A stretch of DNA of 64,000 nucleotides from the NCBI GenBank assembly GCA_053919585.1, contig CM132792.1, one strand, 5' to 3'. Origin of the DNA: Euprymna scolopes. Its lineage: Eukaryota. Positions 28,910 to 46,620 of the stretch are shown one piece after another. A program made the position numbers and the translations under genes. The notes under the pieces were generated by a model. That model saw only the letters and a program-made list of their open reading frames with translations, was not told the origin of the DNA and did no database searches. Position 1 is the stretch's first letter. Every line of letters starts with the position of its first letter.

Positions 28910-31604
28910 TACTGCGCAACACTTAAAAAAAGCACAGCATATCTGCAGCAATTTTTGTATACCTAGTAACGTGGAAATTTTATTTTTGGCTTTCTTTTTG
29001 TTGAATTAGGTATAATTTGTGCAAAATTGCCACAGTCGTAAATTTCAGTAAAAACGTCAAAAATGGGTTACTGACGACTTTGCAGTCACATATTATGTGT
29101 ATTAAATTATAAATCTTAAGAGAAAAACATAGTTTAATATACACATATTATGTACATTATTTGTTAAATAATTTATTTGAATAATTTATTTGCTAAAGTC
29201 CATCGAAATGAGCTATTTTTCCATATTTAAGAGAGCTAGATGACAGAGCTAGCTTGGTTAGCGTAATATTTTCTAGACCAAGGGCTAATTTTTTTCAAAA
29301 TTAAAAACATAATACTGTAGCACATGGTTTGGTGTTCACCACCTTCCGAAAATCCATGGTATTCGTCAAGAAAGGCATTTTTTAATGTAGGCTAAAAAAT
29401 CAAGGAAAAGCTGCCTCAGAACCTTGTTTGTAGGGCACGGGGAAAAAATCTGACGGTTAAAATAGATATCCATTTAATAAAGTATTTTTTTAAAGTAAAA
29501 ACTACAATAAAGACCGGATTATTGTGTATTTTAATGTTTTAAACATAAAGGGGCATTTTATACATTCTTTTCTGAAAATTTACTAAATTAAATGCAAAAA
29601 ATAGAAATGAAATTTTATCAACCCCTTACTTTATGTACGAAAGAATCTAATAACTTGCTAGTGGGCGTTTATAATGACTTAACATGTTCACATTATGGAA
29701 TCCTTATTTTTCTTTATAAAATAATTTACTTTTTTTCTTGTATTTATTCTTTAGATGCAGTATAGGCTTTGACGATGACTTCAAGACAGTGCAAAAATGA
29801 TCCAAACAAATTCTGTTACATATGTGGCGAATTAAAATTTGCTAAAGAAAGGCGCAGCATTACCAGCCATATCAAAAAAGTGTACAAGGCGTACTTTCAT
29901 TTTGATATAGGAGACCAAGACAAGTCATGGGCTCTTCATGTCTATTGCCTTACATGTGTGAAAACATTGAGCGCATGGTATGCAAAAAAGAATGTTCACA
30001 TGGAGTTTGGTGTGCCAATGATTTCGTGAGAGCAGAAAGATCATTCTAATGATTGCTATTTTTGTCAGCAAGACTATACGGGCTGTACAACAGCAAAAAA
30101 AAAGAAACACATTGTTTACCCAAATTTGCAATCAGCAATGCGCCCAGTTGAGCACTCCAAAGAATTACCTGTACCAAAAACCCCTGATCAGGAAATGTGG
30201 AGTTCAAGCAGTGTGGGAAGAACGTTACAGCTATGAAGCAGTAGAATTTTCTATTTCAGAAAGCAATAATAAACCATTACTATTTTCTCAAGATGCTCTA
30301 AATGACTTATGCAGAGATCTTTATTTAACCAAAGACAAAAGTGAAATTCTTGCATCAAGGCTTAAAGAACGAAATCTTCTTAGAAAAGGTGTGAAAATAA
30401 CATTGTACAGAAAACGTGCACAAAACTTGCATGTTCTGTTCACTTTGACAGATGATTTATGCTTCTGCAATGACATTGTTGGGCTTTTTGAACAGCTGGA
30501 AATTCAATATGATAACACCAACTGGCGACTTTTCTTAGATGCATCCAAGGAAAGCATAAAAGCTGTTTTGCTTGACAATGGGAACACTCTGCCATCTGTT
30601 CCTATATCTTACAGCATAACCATGAAATAATCATATGAACATTTAAAAACAATTTTAGCAAGCATACATTATGAAGTCCATAAATGGCATGTTTGTGCAG
30701 ATTTCAAGGTTATAGCCATGCTCACTGGCCTTCAGCCAGGCTATACTAAATGTTGTTGCTTCTTGTGCTTATGGGACTCTAGAACAAGAGCTGAACACTA
30801 TGTACGCAAGCACTGGCCTGCTAGAGATGAAATTGAGCAAGGAAAACATAACATCAAACACAAACCACTTCTGCAAAGTGATAGAATCCATTTACGACCT
30901 TTGCATATTAAACTCGGTTTGTTCAAGCAGTTTGTGAAAGCACTATACAAGGATTCCTTGGCATTTGCATATCTTGCAGAAAAGTTTCCTTCATTAAGTC
31001 GAGCTAAAATAAAAGACGGTATCTTCATAGGTCCCCAAATTCGAAAAAATTGTTCTTGATGAAACTTTTAACACACATCTCACGAGAAAAGAAAAATGTG
31101 CCTTTGAGTCATTCAAGAAGTTTGTGATAACTTCCTGGGAAAACATCGTTCAGAAGACTATGTGCAAGTTGTGAATGATCTATTGCATCATTTTCATGAT
31201 ATGGGATGTAACATGTCTCTAAAAGCTCATGTGCTCCACTCTCATTTGGATTTTTGGCTGAGAATCTTGGCCATGTGAGTGATGAACATGATGAAAGGTT
31301 CCATCAAGATATTTCATTAATAGAAAAACGTTTTAAAGGAAAATGGAACACTGGTATGTTGGCAGACTACTGCTGGAATTTAAAAAAGGATGATGACACT
31401 CTACACAAGAGAGTCAAGAGGACAAATGTTGTTTAAACTGGTAAATTCGGTGCTTTTTTTTAAATAATTAATAATAAAGTACATGAAAATGGTACCTAAT
31501 CCAGAGAAATAAATGTCAGATTTGGAATCAGCATACTTTTCTTACACCGAAACAGGTCTTATATGTCTTGTACATTTTTTTCAATTCAAATTTGTTGCAC
31601 AGTG
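28910..31604 (+). mobile_element. Chapaev3 (CMC superfamily) DNA transposon, full length, inactivated
   Basis: ATA|tACTGCGCAACA ... TGTTGCACAGTG|ATA: short TIR with CACTG/CAGTG-type ends and a 3 bp TSD, enclosing the transposase. Confidence 0.85.
29775..31436 (+). pseudogene. Chapaev3-type transposase with stops and frameshifts
   Basis: Motifs CKNDPNKFCYICGE, GDQDKSW, LNDLCRDL...SEILASRLKERNLL, WRLFLDASKESIKAVLL, GYTKCCCFLCLWDSR, PLHIKLGLFKQFVKAL, GIFIGPQIRK and SDEH.ERFHQDI across ORFs 29769, 30049, 30718 and 31254. Confidence 0.9.
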
Positions 31605-31869: not shown

Positions 31870-33675
31870 GAATTAAAGAGTTACACTAGGTAAGTCAGGC
31901 ACAACCTGAAAACAGCAAAAAAAAATAACCTCGAGTTTATTGAAAAGACTAGTTCTTCTTGTGGGAGTAATACAATAAGTGTATCTCTGGTACTGCAAAA
32001 AGCTTTGGACGATGACTTCTAACATATTAAAAGAGCATATTTTATTGAAAGAAAACCCTGAAATTATATGTTTTACATTGAACTGACATCTCCAAACCGC
32101 ACGGAAGCCGATACATATATTACATATTATATTAGAAGGGCCGAAACAACAACACATTCATTAAAATATCTGGCAAGGTTATAAACGGTTGTCTGTTTAT
32201 CTCTATGGCCCTTAAAAGGTTGGCAGGCTTTCCCCTGTGATAACTCAGAGTTTCAGTGAATTCAAATTGGCACTTATTAGGTACGCGAAACTGAGAAAAT
32301 GATCATGGGAAAAATGACCCCATAAATATCATGGAATTTACAAATGCACGCTTAAAACACAAAAAACAAATTATACTATTACATCGAATAAAAAACAACT
32401 TTTCCAAAAATATTTTTTTTTTCCTAAGAAAAGGACGAACAGTATTTGCTATAATTGTGGGCGACCCAATCACCAGAGTTTCGAATGTAGATACAAAAAT
32501 TTCAAAGTGGACTCTATTAAAATGCGGAAAGCTCCATTAGCGGACACACATTTTCATGTACGTTTGACAAACCGTAATAAATTTCTTATGTATTGCGGGG
32601 CAATGGAAACGTAATTTCGAAGGAATCGGATTTTATCAGTTTTTATCCCAACTTTAACCCTCAGAGTCACTATGTAGAGCTCGCCGACGGCAGTCGAGTA
32701 AAATAATAAGTAAACTAAAATCCAGCTACGGAATAATAATGGTGGATTTTGTTTCCGTATTTTGGAAAACGCTCTTCTAATCCCAAAATTTAAACAATAT
32801 ATTTCTGTACAAACCGCCACTAAACAAAGTGCAAATACAAATTTTAGCACGAATAAATCAAAACGGATATACACAAATAAAAATGCATTCGATATTAAAG
32901 GCAATGAAAGATTATATCCTTCAAACAGTGTAGTTCCATCAAACATTGCTAGTGATGATTCACAGATATGGAATCAGATACTTGGCCACTGCAATAATCA
33001 AGATATCAAAAATTTGCCGAATGTGGTTGACGAAATTAAAATAAAAAACGACATAAACTTGTCAAACTGCGACGTTTGTAGGAACAGTATAATGGCGAAG
33101 TACCAAAAACACGATTATAAACCAGAAAGCCACGAAAATTCTATCGCTGGTACATTGTGAAATGAAAGGAGCCGTGAAACCCATGGACAGAGAAAACTTC
33201 ATGTATGTATAACATTTGGTAGGGGATTATTCTTGTTTTATAATGGTCTATATCTAAAAAAAAAAAAAAAAAAACATTAAAAAAACGCGAATCTGATAAC
33301 TCACAAGCAACTAAGAAATACTTAGCAGACATTACCTCCAACAATGCAGTAAGGAGTGCCAGATCTAACAATAGTATTTATTCCACTAATAAACTTTTGT
33401 TAATTAACCATCGGATTAAACATGAACAATCGGAATGTAATTCATCTCACCAAAACGGATTTGAGGAAATATAATAGCAACACTTTTAAAATACCAAGAT
33501 GTCCACCTTGAATGAAATTCCCCCCAAATTCTGGACGTATGCACTAATTGCTGCTGCATACATTCACGACCAGCCTTTTAATAAAAGAGTATCTAGAATC
33601 CTATATGAGCTTTCTGCGGTAGAAAATCAAATTTAAGACGACTGCATGTATTTCGCTCAACTTTCGTCGCATTTA
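31870..33675 (+). mobile_element. Copia LTR retrotransposon, 5' half (gag, protease, GAG-pre-integrase, integrase), heavily decayed
   Basis: KCGKLH knuckle remnant; VELADGS; LENALLIP; WNQILGHCN...CDVC; RSNNSIY (RSDNG.EY); SHQNGFEE (PHQNG.AER); FWTYALIAAAYI. Confidence 0.8.
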
Positions 33676-34047
33676 TCTAATATATAAATCTCACTCTGTC
33701 TGTGTTGTGTGTGCGTCTGTCTCCGTTTTTAAATTGTATCTCCTCCTAGTTGGATGGATACTTGATGGCGTTCAATAGCTCCAAAGATTGCATATAGTGT
33801 GCAGAATTTTATTAGAGGTGTTTAATTGATTAAAACAATGGTTAAGGTATTCAAAAATGGGTTCAAACTTGAAAGAAATGAAAACTTGACGAGCATAGCG
33901 CCCATGGCGTCGTTCTGCGCATGCCACGATCTGTAACAGATTTATTTATTTAGTAAATTTGCAAGCTGATGAAAGCAGTTGTCTGTTTGGGGCAATGCGT
34001 AATGTCATCGATTACTAACCCCAGTGTTGCGGGTTCGTGCTCCACCA

Positions 34048-34262: not shown

Positions 34263-35060
34263 TTTTTATTGAATTCATTCCTTAACTAATAACCGACCAT
34301 TATTAATTGTAATTATGTGGGTATGATTATATATTTCTATGTATTGAATTCACTCTTAAACTAATTAACTGAGCATTATTAATTTAAATAAGGTGTATAT
34401 GTTTATATATTTGCATGTATTGGATTCACTCCCAAACTAATTAACTGATCATTATTAATTTTATATGTGTGTATATGATTATATATTTCTATGAATTGGA
34501 TTCACTCCTAAACTAATTAAACGATCATTAATTATTTGAATTATGTGTGTGAGTATATATTTTTATGTATTGAACCCACTCCTAAACTAATTAACCGATC
34601 ATTATGAATTTTTTGTGTGTATATGTATGTATATTTGTATTTATTGGATTCACTCCTGAATTAATTAACCGATCATTATGAATGTTATTCATGCGTATAT
34701 TCTGTATATTTGTATGTGTTGGATTCACTGCTAAACTAATTTACTGGCCATTATGAATTTTATTTATGTGTATGCCTGTATATTTGTATTTATTGGATGT
34801 ATTCCTGAATTAATTAACCGATCATTATTAATTATAATTATGTGTATATGTCTGTATATTTGTATGTGTTGGATTCACCCCTACACTAATTCTCCGTTCA
34901 TTATAAATTTCAATTATGAGTGTATGATTATATATTTCTATGCATTGGAGTCACTGCTAAAATAATTAACCGATCATTATGATTTTTTTATTATCTGCAT
35001 ATGATTATGTAATTTCGTAACTTGGATCCACTCCAAAACTAAGTTACTGATCATTATGGA
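34263..35060. repeat. Minisatellite, ~75 bp unit x 11
   Basis: Anchor g(g/a)attcactc recurs at ~34271, 34346, 34422, 34498, 34572, 34646, 34721, 34795, 34871, 34947 and 35024. Confidence 0.95.
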
Positions 35061-35149: not shown

Positions 35150-36005
35150 TACTGTATAGTGCTCATACTGACCACGTATGTAAAATCATCGAGTATTTTC
35201 ATCCTTATATTAGAAATAAGATATTGCACAGTATCCTACTCAAGAAATATGTTACTTATGCAGTATATAACTCACATGAAAAAACAAAGAATATCTTACC
35301 TGTGACGTAAATAAGTTATTACAGCCGTACATACCGTTAAATATTTGAGTAGTATGGTTACATAAAAATAATGTGCTTCTTCACAATAACACCCAGATAA
35401 AAAAAAACAAATTCTTACCCCTGACGTACAGAACATTTAGCACAATTGAAAATTTCATAAAATTATTGAGTTCTTTTATTTTTAAATTAGAAAGTGTCTC
35501 ACGTAAGAAATAAGGTACTTGTACACTATAGTATCCATATGAAAAACAAAGGAAATTTTACTTGCGACGTACGTAAAAGTAATCAAAACCGACATCATGT
35601 AATATTCGAGTAGTATTATATTTATATAAAAATAAGGTTGGTCTTTACTATAGCACTCTGATGTAAAATCCAAATCTCACCTGTGACACGCGGAAAAGTT
35701 AGCACAATAGAAAATGATGCAAAATTATCGAGTCGTTTCATCTATATCTTAAAAATGACGTACGTGTACATTATCCTGACAAAGAAAAATATACTTGTGC
35801 AGTATTGTGCTCATATGAAAAAACAAAGAAACCCCTACCTATGACGGGCATAAAAGATACTAAAACCAAAAATCATGTAATGTATTCGGCGAGTGCGACT
35901 TTTAAATGAGAAATAAGGTGCTTCTTGACTATAGCACTCTGATGTAAAAACAAACTCTTACCTGTGACATACAGAACAGTTAGCACAACAGAAAATTATG
36001 TAAAT
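35150..36005. repeat. Diverged tandem repeat, ~270 bp unit x ~3, with two related subunits
   Basis: ca(c/t)atgaaaaa(a)caaag at ~35272, 35535 and 35811, alternating with gat(g)taaaa...acctgtgac...ttagcacaa at ~35396, 35660 and 35940. Confidence 0.85.
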
Positions 36006-36100
36006 TATTTTAAATATGTGTTATACATTTCCTGCCCTAGGTAATGAAACGTTTTCATATAAGTGCTGTAAATTTCCTGTCCTAGGGAAGGTACAATCAT

Positions 36101-36350
36101 TTCATCAGGCCAACAAATGTGTAATTTAATTCCAGAATAATCTGACATTTCCTGTCATATTCTAAAACAAGAAAATACATTCTGTTTTTACAAAAGAAAA
36201 TAAATGCATCCCTTTTTACAGGTCACCTGCTACTGCCCGGGGTTCAATCAACGTTTGACTTACAATCTCAGCATATTTACCCGGCCTGACTCAGGGTTTA
36301 AGGAGATCCTAATCTCCCACATTGGGAGCAATATTACTTCCCCTTTGACA
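36101..36350 (-). repeat. Partial LTR of family B (direct repeat of 44979-45226)
   Basis: Shared ttcatcaggccaacaaatgtgt, ttcaatcaacgtttgac, ctcagcatatttacccg and ttgggagcaat; begins TGTC on the minus strand. Confidence 0.85.
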
Positions 36351-37828
36351 TATTGATCTTTACGGGACCAATATGTCTAAGCCAAAAACACCGCTCCGCC
36401 CAATCTACCTCAGGTGGTTTCAATAAATACCGTTCCTTAACTTGATGATATGCAGGTAACCCTACACCCTTTCCCCTTGCTTTACACCCCCTGTCCAATT
36501 CTACCATAGATAAAGGCGGATTCACCTTGATTATCCATGAGCAGTGTTGTCGCATACCCTGTACTATTCCATCCTCTGTTGCGTGGATACTAACAAGTTG
36601 TCCTCGGCTACTCTTACGGCCAGTTGCAAGAGGTCCTCCCTTGCTACTTCAACCTTGCAGGCGCGATTCATCATTTTCTCTTCCCCCTGGAATAATCCCA
36701 ACACACACAACTCATGATCTTCAGTTACATATATTGGATTCGGTGACCGATAAATTCCAAGGGAATTGATCCGACATTCTCCTGCTTCTCGCTGGTTCAA
36801 TAGCATAAATCGATAATCCGCCGTATTAAACGCTACCTATTCCGTCTAAACCTGGTAACTGGCTACCAGCCCCAACTTAGATGTGCTCGATCCCAGGGGA
36901 GCACAGACACGAACACAGTATTTTTCAGGTTCTAGCCGCGCACTACACCTAAGGGGGTATAATATTCCCACAACCTTTCTTCGGGGTTCACCGGGAGTTG
37001 TAGAGCGACGGTAACTTTTGTCTTATATCCTCAAGAACCTTTCTCAGCTCATCCGGTCTTATTATACTTGGGGACAAATACCCCAACGCTAGGGCATCTA
37101 ATTGTGCCCGTATATAAGTGGTTCCACTCGACGGGTGACTGCTCGGTTCGCTGTAGCTGTAACAGAATATGCATTAGTTGTAAATATATATGTAGGAAAG
37201 CTTCCCTCCTTGAAAACTCATTTTCAATTCGACTAGATACATTCCACAGTTCCTCATGTAAAACTTTCAGTATGCTAATGATATCATTAAGGCCTTATCT
37301 ATTTTCTTGCATTTCTACTCTATTGATATTTAATATGGATACCCCCCCGGTAACCTGTGTTAATGTTTTCTCCCCTCGCTCTTATTCCTCTATTCATGTC
37401 TCTTTTAAGGCGAGGTGATCTTCAGTAACCACTCCGAAAAATGCACCCAAGTCTATGCCTATTATAGGTGTAACGGCTCTCTTAGGCCTGGTCTCCAGGT
37501 TTCTCAATCTCTGATAGTGATCCCTTTGGTCAGTCCATCGGGGCCTTAAAATGCCCGTCTCGTCCTTTAAGGGATTCAGTATCTTTACATATTTCCCTAC
37601 ATGCTCATATGTATTAACTAATTGTTTCATCAACACGTCAAATTGATCAATTCCCTTCCTTCTAATTAATTCTCTAAAAGGCAGCAAATCATTTACTAAT
37701 GTCACCAGTCGATTCGACTGTGGTATTATTACGTCGTTAGTTTTCTTGAACATAACACCCCTTCTCACTAGCAGCGCAGTGGACGTCCATATCAGTCCTA
37801 ACAGGAACAACACCATGATCTCCTTCAT
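36351..37828 (-). pseudogene. env: F-type (baculovirus F/errantivirus-like) class I fusion envelope, disrupted and C-terminally truncated
   Basis: Signal peptide MKEIMVLFLLGLIWTSTA; furin site RPKR (37478-37489); fusion peptide AVTPIIGIDLGAFFGVVTEDHL; heptad region GVSILNINRVEMQENR*GLNDII; LDALALGYLSPSIIRPDELRKVLEDIRQKLP; LWEYY; Cys-spaced region (ECR...LCVLGLF...ACK...GCKA). Confidence 0.85.
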
Positions 37829-37830
37829 CT

Positions 37831-37852
37831 CTGCAACGACAGGAAGGAATGG
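37831..37852 (-). promoter_or_regulatory. Splice acceptor immediately upstream of env ATG
   Basis: Minus strand ccattccttcctgtcgttgcag|agATGAAG. Confidence 0.6.
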
Positions 37853-39270
37853 CTCGGTCAGCGACTCAACCGTCCAACTGATTCGCTAAATAACAAAGTG
37901 TGGGGTTGGTGCGGATAAACAATTGTTTGTGGTCCCCAATAACAGAATACAGAAAGAATACCACCACAGCTGATGTATTACGCTCTGGTAACAATGGAAC
38001 GACGAAAATAAAATAAATTCCCATGGACACCTCTCCCTTAGCTATGCTGTGTGTGAATAAACGCACTCTCTTCCTCAGAACTTATTAAAAACCTACAAAG
38101 GTCGCTAACGAAAAAAAATATATGTCGGTAGCAACTCATCTTGCCTCCTATTGAATCAACATCATATTGCCTGTATCTCACGTTCTGCCACACCCTTCAA
38201 TAACCACAGGGCTTCTGAGGGTCGGAAGCGTCACCCTTGCGATCAGATCACTCTGCCGGATCAAAAACCGAAAGCCCCACAACAACATTACAACAACACC
38301 CACCCTCGTTTCCTCGTCAACACCCTTTTGCTTTTCTTAACACGATACCCCTACATAAAAAAAAATCAAATGCTAAAATGCGTAATCCCCAACTTTTTCT
38401 TTCTTCACAACTAGCGATTAACTCTTGCCCAGTAAAGATAAATAAATACATCACTAAAATGCATATTGTTTCACGGCCTCGCTAGCCGGATACTGGTCCG
38501 CTCGGACTCGGTTCTCTAGGTGCAAAAGCTACACCCACGTGATACTCACAGTAATAGTTCATCTAAAGAAAACATCGGTTTTTAACGCTAACAGGAATGA
38601 ATAGAACAAAAGTACTTTTCCTACACTCAGTCATCACAACTATACAGGGGACTCCATCAGTTTCCATTTACTCAAGGAGAAAACCTTCTAGACGGAGAAA
38701 AAACTTTAATTTTCTCTTCAAGAAAATAAATAAAAAAGTATTTATTTAATCTCTCCAAATTAATATTCTCAATTGCTCCTTACTCACCTCCCCAGAACGA
38801 TCATTGTTTCCTGAACAAGAAATCTTGCTTGACTGAGAACAAGTCATATCTTGTCTCCAAAAATTAATTTAACCGTCAAAATTATCACTTTTTTTATTTT
38901 CGGCTGAATTCAACCAACATTTGTCTGATCTGACGCGAAATCCTTCCAAACTGAGGGAACAGTCTATTTCCCTTCAAAAATGTAATTTAATAATCAAAAT
39001 TGTATACTCGTAGTTATTCTCGATTAAAATCATTAAAACAAACTCTCAAGAACAATTAATAACATCAATCCAGAATTCCGCTGCCCCACACGCACACTGG
39101 ATCATCTAACAAACAACATCTTTAAGATCGATTGTTCAAGGTTATATAAAATAACCTGAAGATAATACAACTCATGTCGTACACAAGGCGTCAAAAGTAA
39201 ACTGAAAGTAAATTCGACCATAATGCAATACCCTAGAGGGTGGGTAAGTGCGCTTTCGCAGCGAATGCAA

Positions 39271-39545
39271 CCACTCTATATCTGTGCCTAAATCAAAACG
39301 CAGATTCCATGAACAAAGCTTCTTTCTTAGAACTGCACGCCTGTGGAACTGTTCCGTCTGCCTGCTTCCCTCCGGACTACAACTTGGTTGTCTTCAAGTC
39401 CAATGTTAACAAATTCCTAATGAACCGCCCCCTTAAGTAAACATTTCAGCAAATCTCCTCACTAACGTAATGTACTTGCAATAACCCTTATCCCTGAGTG
39501 GCTTCCGGGCCTTGATAAGTGGTGATCACTGTGTAAGAAAAAAAA
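39271..39545 (+). mobile_element. LINE 3' end (CR1/L2/Jockey group), copy 1
   Basis: SFF.RT..LWN...FP..YNL..FKSNVN C-terminus, 3' UTR gagtggcttccgggccttgataagtggtgatcactgtgt + A tail; homologous to three other copies in the window. Confidence 0.85.
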
Positions 39546-40059
39546 TGTCAAAGCTTTCCTCGCCTACCTCTCACTGACAACATACGGGTCAGCAAGGAGC
39601 ACGTCGGCACACGCAGAACCTTCCCCATTCCACACAGCGGATATTTGCTTCATCCTTTCCCTTCTTTCTCTGAGCTATCTAATTCCAAATGCCATTTTGA
39701 ATATGTTTTTTCCATTAGTTTTACACAATGAGTCCTTTTTTTTCGATGCATTTCTCAAACCAAAATTAATTTAATAATTGAGTCGCTCATGCTAGCTACA
39801 GTCGGGCAGAAAAAAAAACAACCCTGTACAATTTTACAAAAGGCGCTCACATCACATTCGCTCTTTTTTTTTCCTTCCTATAATTCAATCGAAACTTTTT
39901 TTCTTTGCAAAAGGACTACAGTCGGATCAGCAAATTCTCTCCTAGTCTTCACATAGCTTCAATACGCACCGTTGAACAGATTTTCTTCGGCATCGGAGTC
40001 CATTTGATCCAAGAGGAAATTTAATTAAGCCACTTGATGTACAATGTCATGTGGTCGCT

Positions 40060-40440
40060 CGGGCTCCCCCAGTCAGATCTTCACCGGTAATATTGTAAGC
40101 GTGGGTGGTCCGAAGCTGAACACCGCTCCGTGACTTAGTAGCCAGTCATTATCAAGTGATAGCTCTTTTCGCAGCTTTTAAGCCACGTAAACCTTCATTC
40201 ACCCACCGCGGCCACCTAGTGTGAAGGGCACACAAATCATCCCCTCAAGCTTTAGGTCACTACCATCTGCCTGTGCCAACTTTTCATCTGCAGGCTGCAA
40301 TATTTCCTTATCTTTCATCTGCTCATACGCATCCACTCTCAGCAAAGACACAGCTGTCACTGTGTCGACCAGGGTAGTTAGCACCTTGCCCACTGCCTTT
40401 ACAGGATAGGATAAGCCTCCGATTCCTCTGTAACGTATCG
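40060..40440 (-). pseudogene. Gypsy aspartic protease remnant
   Basis: LTTLVDTVTAVSLL (DTGA-like), LAQADGSDLKLEG, LDNDWL (LG.DWL); no RT follows. Confidence 0.8.
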
Positions 40441-40559
40441 CACCCTGAGCGGCTCGTCCTCGATGACCAGCTCTGAGCAGGTGTCGGTAATTCAAGTATT
40501 CCTCGTCCGGCGACTGCCAGTCCGAACAGACATGGGTCACTTCACTTGAACGCTATCCC

Positions 40560-41700
40560 CCCTTTTCTTTGTGACCTCCTTCTTTTCTGAGGGCACTCTC
40601 TTCTTCAGGTGGAGGTCGTTGATCTGGTCGAGCACATCGGTCAATCCCTAGGCGACCGTTACCCGCATCTGTACACCATTTGGATTCAAAACGTCAGTGG
40701 CCATGCCGATGACACCTCTGGCAATATGACTGCCGAATCAAGGGATTACCTGTCAATCTACTCGGGCATTCTACCGCCTGATAACCCTTATAATACCAGC
40801 TAAAGCATACAACCCTTGTCTTCCAGGAATGCTCCTATAGTCTCCATACAGGATATCCCGCTCCAAGTGGGGGCAGCCTCTTTATTCCAATCTTCCTCGT
40901 CCGGCTCCCGGATGTGGTGTAACTTCAGCGACCGGTCTCGACTCTGGTTTCCTCACAGTGGGGGTGGGTCCCTCTAACCACCTTCCACAGTCTCGAACTT
41001 CGAATTCGCCCTCACATTGGTCACTAGTCTGAGCGAGGTCTACCGCCTCCCCCAGCTTAACAGGGTTAACCTTCAAACATCTGTTCTCATATGCCGACCA
41101 AGAAGAGTTTTGCCCAAGACGTAAAATAGCAGGACTTGTATTGGGCCGCCGTCTAGGATCGACTGATCCGGTAAAACTCTTATCGCCAGCTCGGATACTC
41201 GCTCAGCTAAACTACTAATCTCTTCTCCGGATCGCTGACGAAGCGCAAATAATTTCCGGACAGCGTCAATAGCCGTTCTCTCGCTACTAAATTCTTTGAT
41301 TAAAGCTGACCTTTACTGCTGCCTGGTCAACCGGGGATTTTCCTGAAATTGTTTGCCTAGGAAACTGAGCACTGCACCGGCTGCAGCCTTATAAGCAAGT
41401 AAAATCATCTCTGCATCTTGAAAACCAAAAACAAGTTGTTTTTCCTCACATTATGTAGCCAGTCATCAAGTCCACTCGCTTCTCCACGGAAGCTCGGAAT
41501 TTTCAAATGCCTTAATAAAGCTCGAAACGCCTCTGTGGGCTTAAGTGAGCCCAGACTCGGCTCTACATTGATCTTATCGATCAAACGCCTAGGGCTATAC
41601 ATGCCCGTATTCGCTCCAAAATCCTCCGCTCCCATAAGCACTTCTGTTGTAACTCCACTCTCCATCACATCCTTAGTATCGCGGCCGCCATCAACTTCAT
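40560..41700 (-). pseudogene. gag: Gypsy gag remnant
   Basis: IPSFRGEASGLDDWL, RQRSGEEISSLAERVSELA (Q..GE....R...LA), PVKLGEAVDLA; located between the PBS and the protease. Confidence 0.8.
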
Positions 41701-42601
41701 ATTATTTGGTTATCTCCGTAAACCCTAATAACACCCCACAACGTCATATATAATACAATATAATTAATGAAAAGAAGAGAAGGAAGATTACATAAACAAT
41801 CAGAAAAACCAAATATAATACAATGTAATCGATCAAAAAGAGGGTAGAGTTCACAATTATCTATTTAAAATCTACTTTCTCTCTTTTTTTCTTTCTTCTT
41901 TCACTCTTTCTCTTCTTTCAATGTAAGCCAACACGTTCGAATATAACTCAATCACGTGCACACGCTAAAGCGCCCAAAAGAGATCCTTCGTCCCGTGTTA
42001 TCTGCTATTATATCAACATACACAATTAGTTTCGATTTTAACAATACACCCCCTCCCTCTCTCTGGCTAATTCATTGAAACAGAAGACAGCGGTATCGTT
42101 TTCAAACAACATGCCTCTCTTTCTATTCTTTCTTTTTTTTTTAAATCGCGACAGGTTACAAAAACAACAACAAAAAAGAGAAACTAAAAAAAAAAATGCC
42201 TTACCCAGTCGATTGTTTCTGTTTTTCTCTTCTACCTCGCTTTACTTTGTCTTTCTCTTCTCGAACCCGGGGTTTTCTCCAAGAGAAAGAAAAAGTTTCT
42301 TTTCACTATCTCTGTGTACTTTTGTGACCTTGACACGTGGTCTTACACGACCTTGAACCTCTGATCGCGGCCTAGTTATGATCTTAACCCTGGGTCGATG
42401 CCCAATTATGACTATCCTAGTCACCGGGTAATTAATTATGTCGACTGGGCAACCAGGTCTGCCAACCGTTGGAACGTCGCGTCACCCAGTGAGTCCTCGT
42501 CTAGGCGTTGGAGGACTCTTCTCGGTTGCACGGTCCTCAAGGCTTGTTCTTCTTGATCGTCTAGTTAGTCGTCCTGTTGACTGGGTGTTCGTTGACGGGA
42601 A

Positions 42602-42612
42602 CGGGGTCACAA
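42602..42612 (-). promoter_or_regulatory. Primer-binding site (tRNA-Trp-like) of element A
   Basis: Minus strand TTGTGACCCCG versus consensus TGGTGACCCCG, directly abutting LTR A. Confidence 0.7.
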
Positions 42613-43543
42613 GTGGCAAGTAAAAGAATTACAATTACATGGAACAACAGCACATCAGCAAACAAACTCCGGAGGTTGGTTGATATATAATGCATTTAGG
42701 AAATTCATAAATGATTATCGACAGACATATGTACAATTGAAGATTAAATGGAAGCAAGCAATTAGATTTGTGAATGAGCTTCTTGTTGTTGAAATACTCG
42801 GTCGGAGTCGCGGACCGTTGTAATTATCGTTAAAGTGTTCTGGCTGGTCTCTTCCTAGGTCTTCTGGATTCTATTAAGTTGCAAATTGAGCTCTCTGGCG
42901 ACCAGCGAGGCGGGAGAGAGAAGTTGGGTGGCTGGAGTCCTCTACCGAGACCTTTATCTCTGTCTTCTCTCTTCTTCTAACTCTGCTTCTATCTATCTCT
43001 CTGCCAAATCTCTGATTCCATCGAGTTTTACAGATCTTATATAGTAAACCCTTGAATAATTACGACGCCTACGTTCGTCTTCAACCAATCAAATTGATGG
43101 ATAACAATCCACCTGATTCCTTCTCATTGGTCAATTTGGCCTGTGGCAGGTATTATTTTTCCGCCCCCAATTTCCAAAATCAAATTGACTCCTCCCCACC
43201 TTGTCTGACCTCGCCTTCTTTATAATGTTTTTTTTCCATATTTATCAACTGATAATCAGAGGAAATATTATTGTTTAGCTTGTAATAGATCACCAGCTTT
43301 CATCAATTTAACAATATCAATTTGATATTCTTTCCCCTTTGAATTTATTTGTTCTGTCAACATCTCGACAAAATATGTTATGGAAAACCGAAAAATCTCT
43401 TGATCTAAATTTTAAATGGCTTTATCATAGTCACCCGAATCAGTTAATATTTGATTAGAAAAACACTCTTTGAAGCCGACAAATGCGTGTGTTAAATTTT
43501 AACTCCAAAGAATTTATCTATCTTTTGTTTTGATCTTGTCACA
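42612..43543 (-). repeat. 5' LTR of Gypsy element A
   Basis: Termini TGTGACAAG...CTTGCCAC(T) form a short inverted repeat; TATATAAG (minus, ~43036-43043) and CCAAT boxes; followed by PBS and gag. Confidence 0.75.
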
Positions 43544-44395
43544 AATATATTTTGTGAGGCCAACAATTACGTGTGTGTGTGTGTGTGTGTTTCTCAGATC
43601 AAACACGATCCGACATTTCACTTGTCAACCAACACATTTCAAGCCGACCGACATTTCAAAGCTTTGATTCGGAATTTGTCACCGTCGCTCGACTTGAAAC
43701 AAAACGTATGTTTTTTTGAAGTTATCATTCTGTCCATTTGGCTAAAGCATTTATTATTGTTTTAAGTGATCTTTTGCTTTGAAGTTCAGCAGGCGACCTC
43801 CACTTCTATCCCCCGACCGTATGGTATCTCAACAACAAGATTTTGATGCATAAAAATATTAACAAAAAAAATTATTCTTTTTTTGTAACCGGTGTTCGCC
43901 CGGGATTGATTATCACCTTTAACAAAAACGTCACATCGACCCTACTGATCTGATGTGGCCCCTCTTTGGTGTTACACTTTTGCGTTTTTCTCTCTCTCTC
44001 CCAATGCTATATTATTTGATTAAAAATTTCTCTTTCGAATTTTTCTTTTACTGTCACTCAATTTTAAAATTTTCACTTCTCTCCTTTTTTGTATTTTGTT
44101 CTCAGTCTCTCCTTCTCTATTTTATTATAGTTTTTTTATGCCTTTCGCAATCGTCTTATTTTCAAATGTGTGTTCCGCGTTTTTTTCTTCTGTTTTTCAC
44201 TCTATCCTTGTCTCTTCTCTCTCTTTCTCTCTCTCTGTATATATAATATACCTAAGTGTCTCTTTTTTCGTTGTGCTCTCTTTTTTCTTCTGTCTTTTTT
44301 CCTCGGCAATAATGTAAGAAACGCCTTCCCTTTAAGACTCGTCCTGGTAAATTGGTCACCAACGGTGAGTCCTCCCGCTACGCAGGTCAGCAGAT

Positions 44396-45226
44396 GGGGT
44401 CACTAACTCGGCTGAAACTGCAATGACCGGTGATCTTCCGGGAGAACTTCACAAAGTACTTAGCGTCGCAGGCCCCGTGCTGATTTCCGCTGAAAATTAA
44501 TTCGCTTTGCATGCGAGCCCCCCAAAAAGGATTGAAAACTCGGAGCGTTCTATACTACGAAAAAATTAATTCAGGAAAATTACAGGTTTGTACATATGTA
44601 CATTATTCTGTTAGATTACAACAGAAACATCAAGATTTTTCCCAAACTCATTCTTTGTTCTCCATGATGGCGGTCGTGATGGACAGAGAGATTTGGCGGT
44701 TCTCTGTGAGCGTGTGTTTCCCTCGAGAGTTGACTTCAATCTGCTAATTTCGGCACTGGCATTCGGTTAACAAAGAAAAAGGATAGGTTGGGACAACCTC
44801 CCTGACCAATCAGAATCCAATACGTCTTTTGGGGTATCCCCAAATCCCTTTGCTTGTGTGCACTTCAGCAGTCCGACTATGGGAATCTGAGATCAACACT
44901 CAATTTCTATTCACAAGCTCCAAAAAGTCAACACTGTCACTGTTCCACTCTCAGAAGCCAGACAGGCTGACCAGGTGTTCATCAGGCCAACAAATGTGTG
45001 ATTTCATTCTACGTTTATCTAAATTTGCTGTCATATTCTCAAACAATAAAATATATGCGTTTTTCTTACAAAACACAACAAATTCATTCCTTTTGATATG
45101 TCACCCGCCGCCGTCCGGGATTCAATCAACGTTTGACAGACACACTCAGCATATTTACCCGACCTGACTCAGGTTTTTATTGGATCTTAATCTCCCCAAT
45201 TGGGAGCAATGTAGTTCCTCTAGACG
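44396..45226 (-). repeat. 5' LTR plus PBS of Gypsy-like element B
   Basis: Outer 250 bp matches 36101-36350; inner end is followed by TAGTGACCCC (PBS-like, 44396-44405); Copia sequence resumes just outside it. Confidence 0.7.
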
Positions 45227-45230
45227 GTCA

Positions 45231-46620
45231 TGTTATAAAATTATTAATGATGAAGACAGCGATGATGATGATGCCACAGGGGGAAATTTATCGGGACGGA
45301 CTCGAAAAGAATTAGAAGATGACTTGATAATTTTGTGGACGACAATTTGGAAGATTGTAAAGTCGACTCTATTCTATGGATTAACAAAACAATTAATTCT
45401 GAATATTTTCATCCATTGAAAATAGAAATGGAAAGCGACTATATTTTTTTGCGAAAGGATACTCTCAGATTTACGGTATATGATAGTTTTATACCTTTAC
45501 ACAAAATACAAATCCAACCTCACCATTTTTTTGCAAATCGCATCGCATTATAACCTTGACATCCATCAAATGTACATACAATGCTTATTTAAATGCACTG
45601 ATAGAATGGAGCATTTATATTACCCCTCCACAAAGATGCATAATGTAAAAAAAAATGCGGAGGCTTAACGTACGGTCTGATGCTGAGCAGTCGAATACAG
45701 TTCTTTATGATTATATGGTTGTGCAACAATTCAAACAATCCACAGTAGGCCCCTGTTTGTATACCAAAAACAAAGACAATACACTACTGGCTTTAGTTTT
45801 ATGAGTTGATGACCTTTTAATCGCATCAAGTTTTGTCATAATGTTAGCCGATGTTAAACACATATTAAATACAAAATTCAAAATGACCGATCTTGAGAAA
45901 ATATTATGGTTCCTTGGCATTACATTTACTCATGAAAAGGGAATTATTAAAATGAATCAATCAGGGTTTATTTGTAAAATCCTATTAGAATTCTTAATGC
46001 AAGATTGAAATAAACGCCGGTCTAAAATTATATCACCAAAAACACAAACACAGAATTTGAAATGATTGACGATAAACTATACCGAGATATACTTGGAAGC
46101 CGAGAAGTGACGTATGTTACACAAAAAAACTGTCACAAAAATATCAATACCGAGAATGAAAGATTAAAACAGAGCAAAACAAGTTATTTGTCATTTAATA
46201 AAGGACTAAGTATCAGCATTTAATATTTAGAAAATCAACACATTCCCTAAAATTAGAATTGTTTTTCGAATTTAGATTGTGTAAATGATGAAGTTAAAAC
46301 ACGAATTTTCTGGATATTGTTTTAGACTATCAAAGAATAAAAACACTACTTCATGAAACTCTTAAGCGCAGAAGATTTTATCTCTACGTTTGAGGCGGAA
46401 TTGATTCTGCACAAGATGCCCCATGCCTAAAAACTATTCTACTAATTGTTTGGGAACCAAAATTCACTGAGACTTTCGTCGTAATAAATTATGAAAATCA
46501 AGAAAGCATAATCTTAGCGCAGAACAGCGTAATTCACCAAGATCTTGGCGCCGATATATTTACACAACCGGCGAATAAAAATGTAAATGTTTCGCCTCTA
46601 AACTTGCCAGTATTTGGCTT
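45231..46620 (+). mobile_element. Copia LTR retrotransposon, 3' half (RT and RNase H), decayed
   Basis: IHQM; VDDLLIAS; FKMTDLEKILWFLGI; MNQSGFICKIL; YRDILGS; STFEAE; ENQESIILAQN; ADIFT. Confidence 0.85.

What the first reader, a model, noticed from the sequence alone, without database searches (positions are those of the whole stretch)
36351..37852. Errantivirus-like F-type envelope in a Gypsy complex of a probable non-insect animal
Seen: splice acceptor, signal peptide, RPKR furin site, a G..LG.FFGV.T..D-type fusion peptide, heptad repeat and GxLSPSIIxP..L motif, downstream of Gypsy gag-pro and in the same orientation. Established: this is the organisation of baculovirus F-related env in insect errantiviruses. 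Inference: an endogenous, once potentially infectious, retrovirus-like lineage in this host, and a possible source of domesticated fusogens.
Basis: partly seen in the sequence, partly recalled or inferred. Interest (0 to 1): 0.75.

Follow-up and report, generated by a model that had tools for sequence, protein, structure and literature searches.

The report
Broken envelope gene of gypsy retroelement
This is a real but broken envelope (membrane-fusion) gene related to baculovirus F protein, likely the relic of a retrovirus-like jumping element of a kind already catalogued in molluscs, annelids and crustaceans, so it is an ordinary fossil rather than a working or host-adopted gene.

Summary
From ATG 37828 the DNA matches a family of ~670-aa envelope proteins (219 hits, best E 2e-23, 33% identity) over profile positions 5-505 of 673. 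36 of 60 aligned relatives hit Pfam Baculo_F, and their profile hits PDB 'fusion protein' 9w4d (E 1e-18). The window's own translation hits neither directly. One relative lies in an intact gag-pol-env Ty3/gypsy element (L001), whose gag and protease match the window's.

The copy is dead: 7 stops in 493 codons, 4 frame switches, about 20 codons missing, no transmembrane anchor, and no RT, RNase H or integrase found. Its decay fits neutral drift, so domestication is unsupported.

F-type env-bearing gypsy elements outside insects are already described (Chary & Hayashi, PMC13524379). The host is unidentified; all 7 organism-named relatives among 30 looked up are molluscan.

Small additions: no close relative in the library, and an acceptor-like site just before the env ATG in 7 of 7 related loci.

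Verdict: a new, decayed member of a known kind.

The parts
37831..37850 (-). Predicted splice acceptor (pyrimidine tract + CAG) 2 nt before the env ATG
   Evidence: Sequence; similar site 7-18 nt before the ATG in 7 of 7 related loci that include the env start (read by eye); splicing not shown
36345..37828 (-). Decayed F-type env: 7 stops, 4 frame switches, about 20 codons missing near 36895, no stem or transmembrane anchor
   Evidence: Significant profile match ends at 36418; continuation to about 36345 is by eye
37775..37828 (-). Predicted signal peptide (residues 1-18)
   Evidence: Hydropathy peak 2.17; aligns with the N-termini of relatives
37478..37489 (-). Furin-type site RPKR (residues 114-117)
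   Evidence: K116 and R117 invariant in A2
37412..37477 (-). Predicted fusion peptide (residues 118-139)
   Evidence: P, G, F, G, E invariant in A2; hydropathy 1.74
37133..37411 (-). Heptad-repeat-like helical region, 3 in-frame stops
   Evidence: Alignment A2; stops counted
37045..37083 (-). GxLSPSIIxP..L motif, in a shifted frame
   Evidence: Aligns with P0001 240-276; profile iE 5.7e-10
36480..36899 (-). Cysteine-bearing part of the ectodomain; 5 of the 6 family cysteines kept
   Evidence: Conserved Cys list; pairwise alignments; hhalign 97.8% and 88.7%
40094..40393 (-). Decayed aspartic protease of Ty3/gypsy type; no RT, RNase H or integrase follows
   Evidence: Match to L001 pol 41-140, iE 3.3e-7; nothing else of pol matched in 37700-45000
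40690..41665 (-). Decayed gag (capsid-like part and two zinc-knuckle-like motifs)
   Evidence: Match to L001 gag iE 1.3e-5 and to Lottia P0029 gag iE 7.5e-6; weak PNMA hit E 0.049; knuckles read by eye
39271..39543 (+). Poly(A)-tailed dispersed repeat (likely retroposon) inserted between protease and env; 3 more copies in the window
36101..36346 (.). Direct repeat, downstream copy, starting where env is cut off; candidate LTR remnant
   Evidence: 80% identical to 44978-45222, K2P 0.22; LTR status inconclusive
44978..45222 (.). Direct repeat, upstream copy; carries AATAAA on the minus strand; candidate LTR remnant

Best explanation
This is a pseudogenised F-type envelope gene, likely the env of a Ty3/gypsy element of the 'ancient errantivirus' kind, and it likely has no protein function now. 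In the living ancestor (inferred from relatives and from Drosophila gypsy), env would have been made from a spliced subgenomic RNA using the acceptor before the ATG, entered the secretory path by its signal peptide, been cut by furin after RPKR to expose the fusion peptide, and, anchored by a C-terminal transmembrane helix, fused a gag-built particle with another cell, plausibly of the germline. Shown here: homology, motif conservation, linkage of the family to gag-pol, and the breaks. Inferred: splicing, cleavage, fusion, infection, and that the upstream gag-protease belongs to the same insertion (about 0.65). After insertion, apparently into a Copia element on the other strand, it lost most of pol and the env C-terminus and drifted by about 10% per site.
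For: 219 hits at E<=0.001, 61 at <=1e-10, best 33% identity. Colinear profile match over positions 5-505 of 673 in four frame segments. 36 of 60 relatives hit Baculo_F; profile hits PDB 9w4d and 9w4c 'fusion protein' at 1.2e-18 and 3.7e-17, including the R-x-K-R/fusion-peptide stretch. L001 has gag, PR-RT-RH-IN pol and Baculo_F env; its env matches the window at E 6e-24, its gag and protease at iE 1e-5 and 3e-7. Equal stop density in env (7 of 493 codons) and gag-protease (6 of 436). Neutral simulation at 0.11 changes per site gives 6.7 +/- 2.3 stops, and the flanking repeats differ by 0.22, that is 0.11 each. 57 of 62 full-length relatives have a C-terminal hydrophobic helix (KD >= 2.0); the best in three frames downstream here is 1.51. 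Gypsy env is made from a spliced mRNA and has furin site, fusion peptide and TM (PMC4276936, passages).
Against: The window's own translation hits no Pfam family and no PDB chain; P0001 alone hits no PDB chain either; the F assignment is transitive, and 24 of 60 relatives also miss Baculo_F at E 0.001. No fold could be predicted. No RT, so no clade assignment. 2.2 kb without pol homology separates protease from env, and gag similarity (24%) is generic for gypsy elements. The LTR candidates lack clean TG..CA ends, a polypurine tract and a target-site duplication, and lie 3.3 kb from gag. The tree gives the window env a long branch (2.35) and no supported sister (quick method, 106 of 153 rows).
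Confidence: 0.85

Rival explanations
1. Env and gag-protease are pieces of two different gypsy insertions that happen to lie in one orientation in a nest of transposons; the 246-bp repeats are two copies of a third short element.
For: No pol homology in the 2.2 kb between them; a primer-site-like 12-mer at 41690 directly before gag (2 mismatches to a tRNA-Arg site) suggests a 5' LTR there, with no partner found; the window is full of nested repeats.
Against: Same strand, canonical order, same stop density; both match the same intact element L001; repeat divergence matches env decay.
Confidence: 0.3
2. A non-autonomous family: gag-protease plus an anchor-less, secreted env that spread as such, borrowing RT and integrase from a full-length partner.
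For: Pol ends just after the protease; env stops exactly where the candidate LTR starts; acceptor and ATG are retained.
Against: One copy only; both losses are what post-insertion deletion gives; no polypurine tract at the env-repeat junction; no genome to count copies.
Confidence: 0.1
3. A domesticated env or N-terminal fragment (144 codons, ending just after the fusion peptide) kept by the host, like Drosophila Iris.
For: The first 144 codons are open; chance of so long a first run given 11 lesions in 495 codons is 0.02.
Against: Chance that some run is this long is 0.27; stops match the neutral expectation; the TM is lost; Iris keeps an intact frame and TM (PMC1262188, passages); viral gag-pro remnants still flank it.
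Confidence: 0.04
4. An F gene from another carrier (BEL/Pao element or an integrated large DNA virus) rather than gypsy.
For: Baculo_F also covers baculoviral and roo-type proteins (PMC13524379 section 6); the window env has no close relative.
Against: Relatives with context are gypsy-linked: L001, L003, Lottia P0029 and P0027 with gag, Mytilus P0104 with integrase; none found in IMG/VR; acceptor placement is shared with the gypsy-linked loci.
Confidence: 0.05

Closest known systems
F-type env of 'ancient errantiviruses' (non-insect env-bearing Ty3/gypsy elements; Chary & Hayashi, eLife 2026, PMC13524379; read: abstract, sections 5, 6, 9 part 1 of each, passages, searches in supplements 1 and 6)
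   Same: Signal peptide, furin site, fusion peptide, gag-(pol)-env order. The paper lists ENV_F elements in bivalves, gastropods, annelids and decapods; all organism-named relatives here are molluscan.
   Different: Those are intact, mostly multi-copy elements; this one is dead, lacks RT/RH/IN and TM, and cannot be placed on their pol tree. I did not compare sequences with the paper's elements.
Drosophila gypsy/ZAM errantivirus Env (PMC4276936, passages)
   Same: Spliced env, PS-furin-FP-TM layout; Pfam Gypsy hits 4 of 60 relatives.
   Different: No direct sequence match of the window to Pfam Gypsy; relatives are from molluscs and unnamed metagenome contigs.
Baculovirus F protein (PF12259; PDB 9w4d/9w4c, titled only 'fusion protein'; its baculoviral identity is my inference)
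   Same: R-x-K-R, hydrophobic peptide with FG, LSP motif and cysteines align.
   Different: Remote, profile-level only; carried by a retroelement.
Iris, domesticated env of Drosophila (PMC1262188, passages)
   Same: Same protein superfamily.
   Different: Iris is an intact selected host gene with TM and without furin site; this locus is broken, keeps the furin site and has lost the TM.

Membership tests
F-type errantivirus env (operational: env-bearing Ty3/gypsy) | Profile homology to Baculo_F / F-type env | tested here: met
   Through relatives: 36 of 60 hit PF12259, PDB 1e-18; window matches their profile iE 4e-47. Direct hit: none
F-type errantivirus env (operational: env-bearing Ty3/gypsy) | Signal peptide | tested here: met
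   Hydropathy 2.17 at residues 6-20; no dedicated predictor
F-type errantivirus env (operational: env-bearing Ty3/gypsy) | Furin site followed by fusion peptide | tested here: met
F-type errantivirus env (operational: env-bearing Ty3/gypsy) | C-terminal transmembrane anchor | tested here: not met
   Absent in this copy; present in 57 of 62 full-length relatives. Read as loss by truncation
F-type errantivirus env (operational: env-bearing Ty3/gypsy) | Class I F fold (head and stalk trimer) | not testable with these tools
F-type errantivirus env (operational: env-bearing Ty3/gypsy) | Linked Ty3/gypsy gag and protease upstream, same strand | tested here: met
   one-element status likely but not proven
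F-type errantivirus env (operational: env-bearing Ty3/gypsy) | RT, RNase H, integrase in gypsy order | tested here: not met
   None in 37700-45000; present in relative L001
F-type errantivirus env (operational: env-bearing Ty3/gypsy) | LTR pair, primer-binding site, polypurine tract | tested here: inconclusive
   246-bp direct repeat at 80%; no clean ends, PPT or target-site duplication; two weak PBS candidates
F-type errantivirus env (operational: env-bearing Ty3/gypsy) | Env expressed from a spliced RNA | tested here: inconclusive
   Acceptor-like site here and in 7 of 7 loci; no reads laid
'Ancient' versus 'insect' errantivirus clade | Position on the RT tree and intact RNase H bridge | not testable with these tools
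   No RT in the window, no genome; env tree unresolved
Domesticated env (Iris, syncytin type) | Intact frame under selection | tested here: not met
   7 stops, 4 frame switches, neutral expectation 6.7 stops

The most novel reading that the evidence does not exclude
A deeply divergent F-type env lineage (no relative above 33% among 1.84 billion representatives) in a host group for which no intact F-type element is listed (for example cephalopods or flatworms in PMC13524379), spread as a non-autonomous gag-protease plus anchor-less env unit; with the acceptor before the ATG showing that spliced env expression is ancestral to all F-type elements.
Probability: 0.1. Interest if true: 0.5.

Novelty: new member of a known kind. 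Interest (0 to 1): 0.2.

Why it matters
It adds one fossil, on a long branch, to a recently described and widespread class of env-bearing retroelements in invertebrates. It would matter more if the host proves to be a group listed without intact F-type elements (0 'cephalopoda' rows in supplement 1; the paper says flatworms, nematodes and bryozoans carry only gB-type env and finds none in echinoderms or sponges). The shared acceptor-like site before env in non-insect elements is a small testable point; 'splic' does not occur in that paper's main text, but I ran no wider literature search on it. The locus gives no support for a domesticated fusogen.

Tried and rejected
Direct Pfam scan of the env frames and of three minus frames of 38001-45000: 0 hits in 7. 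Word-index homologue search with the 144-aa ORF: none of 372 candidates passed. A second such search was wasted on a wrong frame. A1 was too diverse for locus search; A3 found 9 metagenome loci and none in IMG/VR. Search for the missing stem/TM elsewhere in the window: no positive hit beyond low-complexity noise. A possible integrase C-terminal remnant just before env (37913-37800, E 0.16) was not recovered with L001 pol and is rejected as unproven. Reading the 246-bp repeat as Copia integrase: no Pfam or P0164 match. Host identification: no tRNA, no Rfam hit, no credible Pfam hit in 144 of 273 ORFs sent. Sequencing runs: 7 of 24 rows hold part of the stretch, 2 hold over half (two studies, organism A; one may be the source); no RNA holder listed; no reads were laid, so expression is untested. 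No paper found for PDB 9W4C/9W4D. No fold and no Atlas result were obtained. Earlier scan notes: nothing by place or sequence.

Full report
Observation. The feature is on the minus strand in an island of 42% GC within 28-35% GC DNA. An ATG at 37828 opens 144 codons: a hydrophobic leader, RPKR at residues 114-117, then a hydrophobic stretch. An acceptor-like pyrimidine tract and CAG end 2 nt before the ATG. The GxLSPSIIxP..L motif lies in another frame at 37083-37045.

Homology. Pfam gives no direct hit, and a word-index search failed. phmmer of the first frame segment, stops read as X, against 1.84 billion representatives gave 219 hits at E<=0.001 and 61 at <=1e-10; the best is P0001 (669 aa, 33%, E 2e-23). 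A profile from 70 full-length relatives (8 of them near-duplicates of P0002) matches the window colinearly: positions 5-306, 250-288, 348-465 and 467-505 of 673, in changing frames. hhalign confirms the later segments. Five of six conserved cysteines survive. 36 of 60 relatives hit Baculo_F and 4 hit Pfam Gypsy. Their profile hits PDB 9w4d and 9w4c, 'fusion protein'; single sequences do not. The F assignment is therefore secure but transitive, and no fold could be computed.

Relatives and their context. Of 30 relatives looked up, 7 carry an organism name, all molluscs: Haliotis cracherodii, Lottia gigantea (2), Mytilus edulis (2), M. coruscus and Mercenaria mercenaria. Nine metagenome loci encode relatives. 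L001 is a whole element: gag, then protease-RT-RNase H-integrase, then a Baculo_F env, with identical 91-bp ends. L003 has an integrase before env. All 7 loci that include the env start show a pyrimidine tract and YAG 7-18 nt before the ATG (read by eye; L005, L006 and L009 resemble each other, so about 5 independent cases). Drosophila gypsy env comes from a spliced RNA (PMC4276936, passages), so the same is inferred here. In a quick tree of the N-terminal part (106 of 153 rows; rows with short matches dropped) the window env has a branch of 2.35 against a median of 0.74 and no supported sister; decay explains only part of that length.

State of this copy. Seven stops in 493 codons over five separately read segments, four frame switches (near 37150, 37000, 36900, 36540), and about 20 codons missing near 36895. 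Significant homology ends at 36418; the last third or so of the stem, the TM and the tail are absent here and elsewhere in the window, while 57 of 62 full-length relatives have a TM. Neutral decay at 0.11 changes per site predicts 6.7 +/- 2.3 stops; a lesion-free run of 144 codons somewhere has probability 0.27, and as the first run 0.02. I read this as a pseudogene.

Surroundings. Gag (41665 to about 40690) and protease (40393-40094) lie upstream on the same strand and match L001; their stop density, 6 of 436 in three segments, equals that of env (a fourth segment was read in a wrong frame and left out). No RT, RNase H or integrase matches in 37700-45000. A poly(A)-tailed repeat sits in the gap. 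A 246-bp direct repeat (36101-36346, 44978-45222; 80%, K2P 0.22) brackets the whole. Its age fits an LTR pair and one copy carries AATAAA, but it lacks clean ends, a polypurine tract and a target duplication, and another primer-site candidate lies directly before gag at 41690; LTR status is open. On the plus strand, Copia gag knuckle, pre-integrase and integrase lie at 32426-33615 and Copia RT at 45421-46005, so the gypsy complex appears nested in a Copia element; that the two Copia halves are one element is inferred from their order.

Mechanism. Ancestrally (inferred): spliced env RNA, secretion, furin cleavage, fusion-peptide exposure, class I fusion from a TM-anchored trimer, allowing cell-to-cell transfer of particles. 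Today (shown at sequence level): no intact product is possible. Expression is untested.

Comparison with what is known. Chary & Hayashi (PMC13524379; abstract, first parts of sections 5, 6 and 9, passages, searches in supplements 1 and 6) report intact F-type env-bearing Ty3/gypsy elements across most animal phyla, with conserved furin site and fusion peptide. Rows I saw include 15 bivalve, 10 gastropod and 15 malacostracan elements, all ENV_F, and 14 of 15 annelid rows. There is no cephalopod row; supplement 6 gives octopuses 0 hits, three squids 1-16 env hits and Schmidtea 4. I did not see their sequences, so I cannot say whether this lineage is among theirs. It works like such an element and is a decayed member by homology; two defining parts (pol core, TM) are missing from this copy. 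Literature searches run.

Verdict. Real, correctly recognised, known in kind, dead, host unknown. Interest 0.2.

Noticed in passing
window 32000-33750 (+) and 45225-46100 (+): Decayed Ty1/Copia element: zf-CCHC, gag_pre-integrase, integrase core, and RVT_2 (E 3.4e-21) about 11.5 kb further on; likely one element split by nested insertions.
   Followed up: partly
window 39271-39543, 53675-53974, 55185-55407, 56800-56991: Four copies (70-93% alike) of a poly(A)-tailed repeat, likely a SINE or LINE 3' end.
   Followed up: partly
window 30022-31059 (+): 345-codon frame with one stop that looks like a DNA transposase; no Pfam hit. The name Chapaev/CMC is recalled, not from a call.
   Followed up: no
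window 60307-61472 (-): Fragments resembling an RTE-type LINE reverse transcriptase (recalled motifs; no Pfam hit).
   Followed up: no
window 34267-35057 and 35178-36009: Tandem arrays of 76-bp units (10.5 copies) and of roughly 270-bp units, between the Copia integrase and the env-side repeat.
   Followed up: no
window 5841-6530, 6583-6887, 16126-16360: Long near-perfect inverted repeats (up to 98% over 211 nt arms), MITE-like or assembly-related.
   Followed up: no
window 6983-7453: 83-bp tandem repeat, 5.7 copies.
   Followed up: no
L001 1-8588: Intact gag-pol-env Ty3/gypsy element with a tRNA-His-type primer site and F-type env in a metagenome contig.
   Followed up: partly
L001, L002, L003, L005, L006, L007, L009 (env starts): Pyrimidine tract plus YAG 7-18 nt before the env ATG in all seven.
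   Followed up: partly
L005 2546-3205, L006 2606-4123 (-): Another gypsy RT/RNase H lies antisense just downstream of env in two related loci (read by eye).
   Followed up: no
window 42300-43000 (-): Non-coding stretch upstream of gag with an LTR-like look (TGTAAG at about 42346); no partner found.
   Followed up: partly
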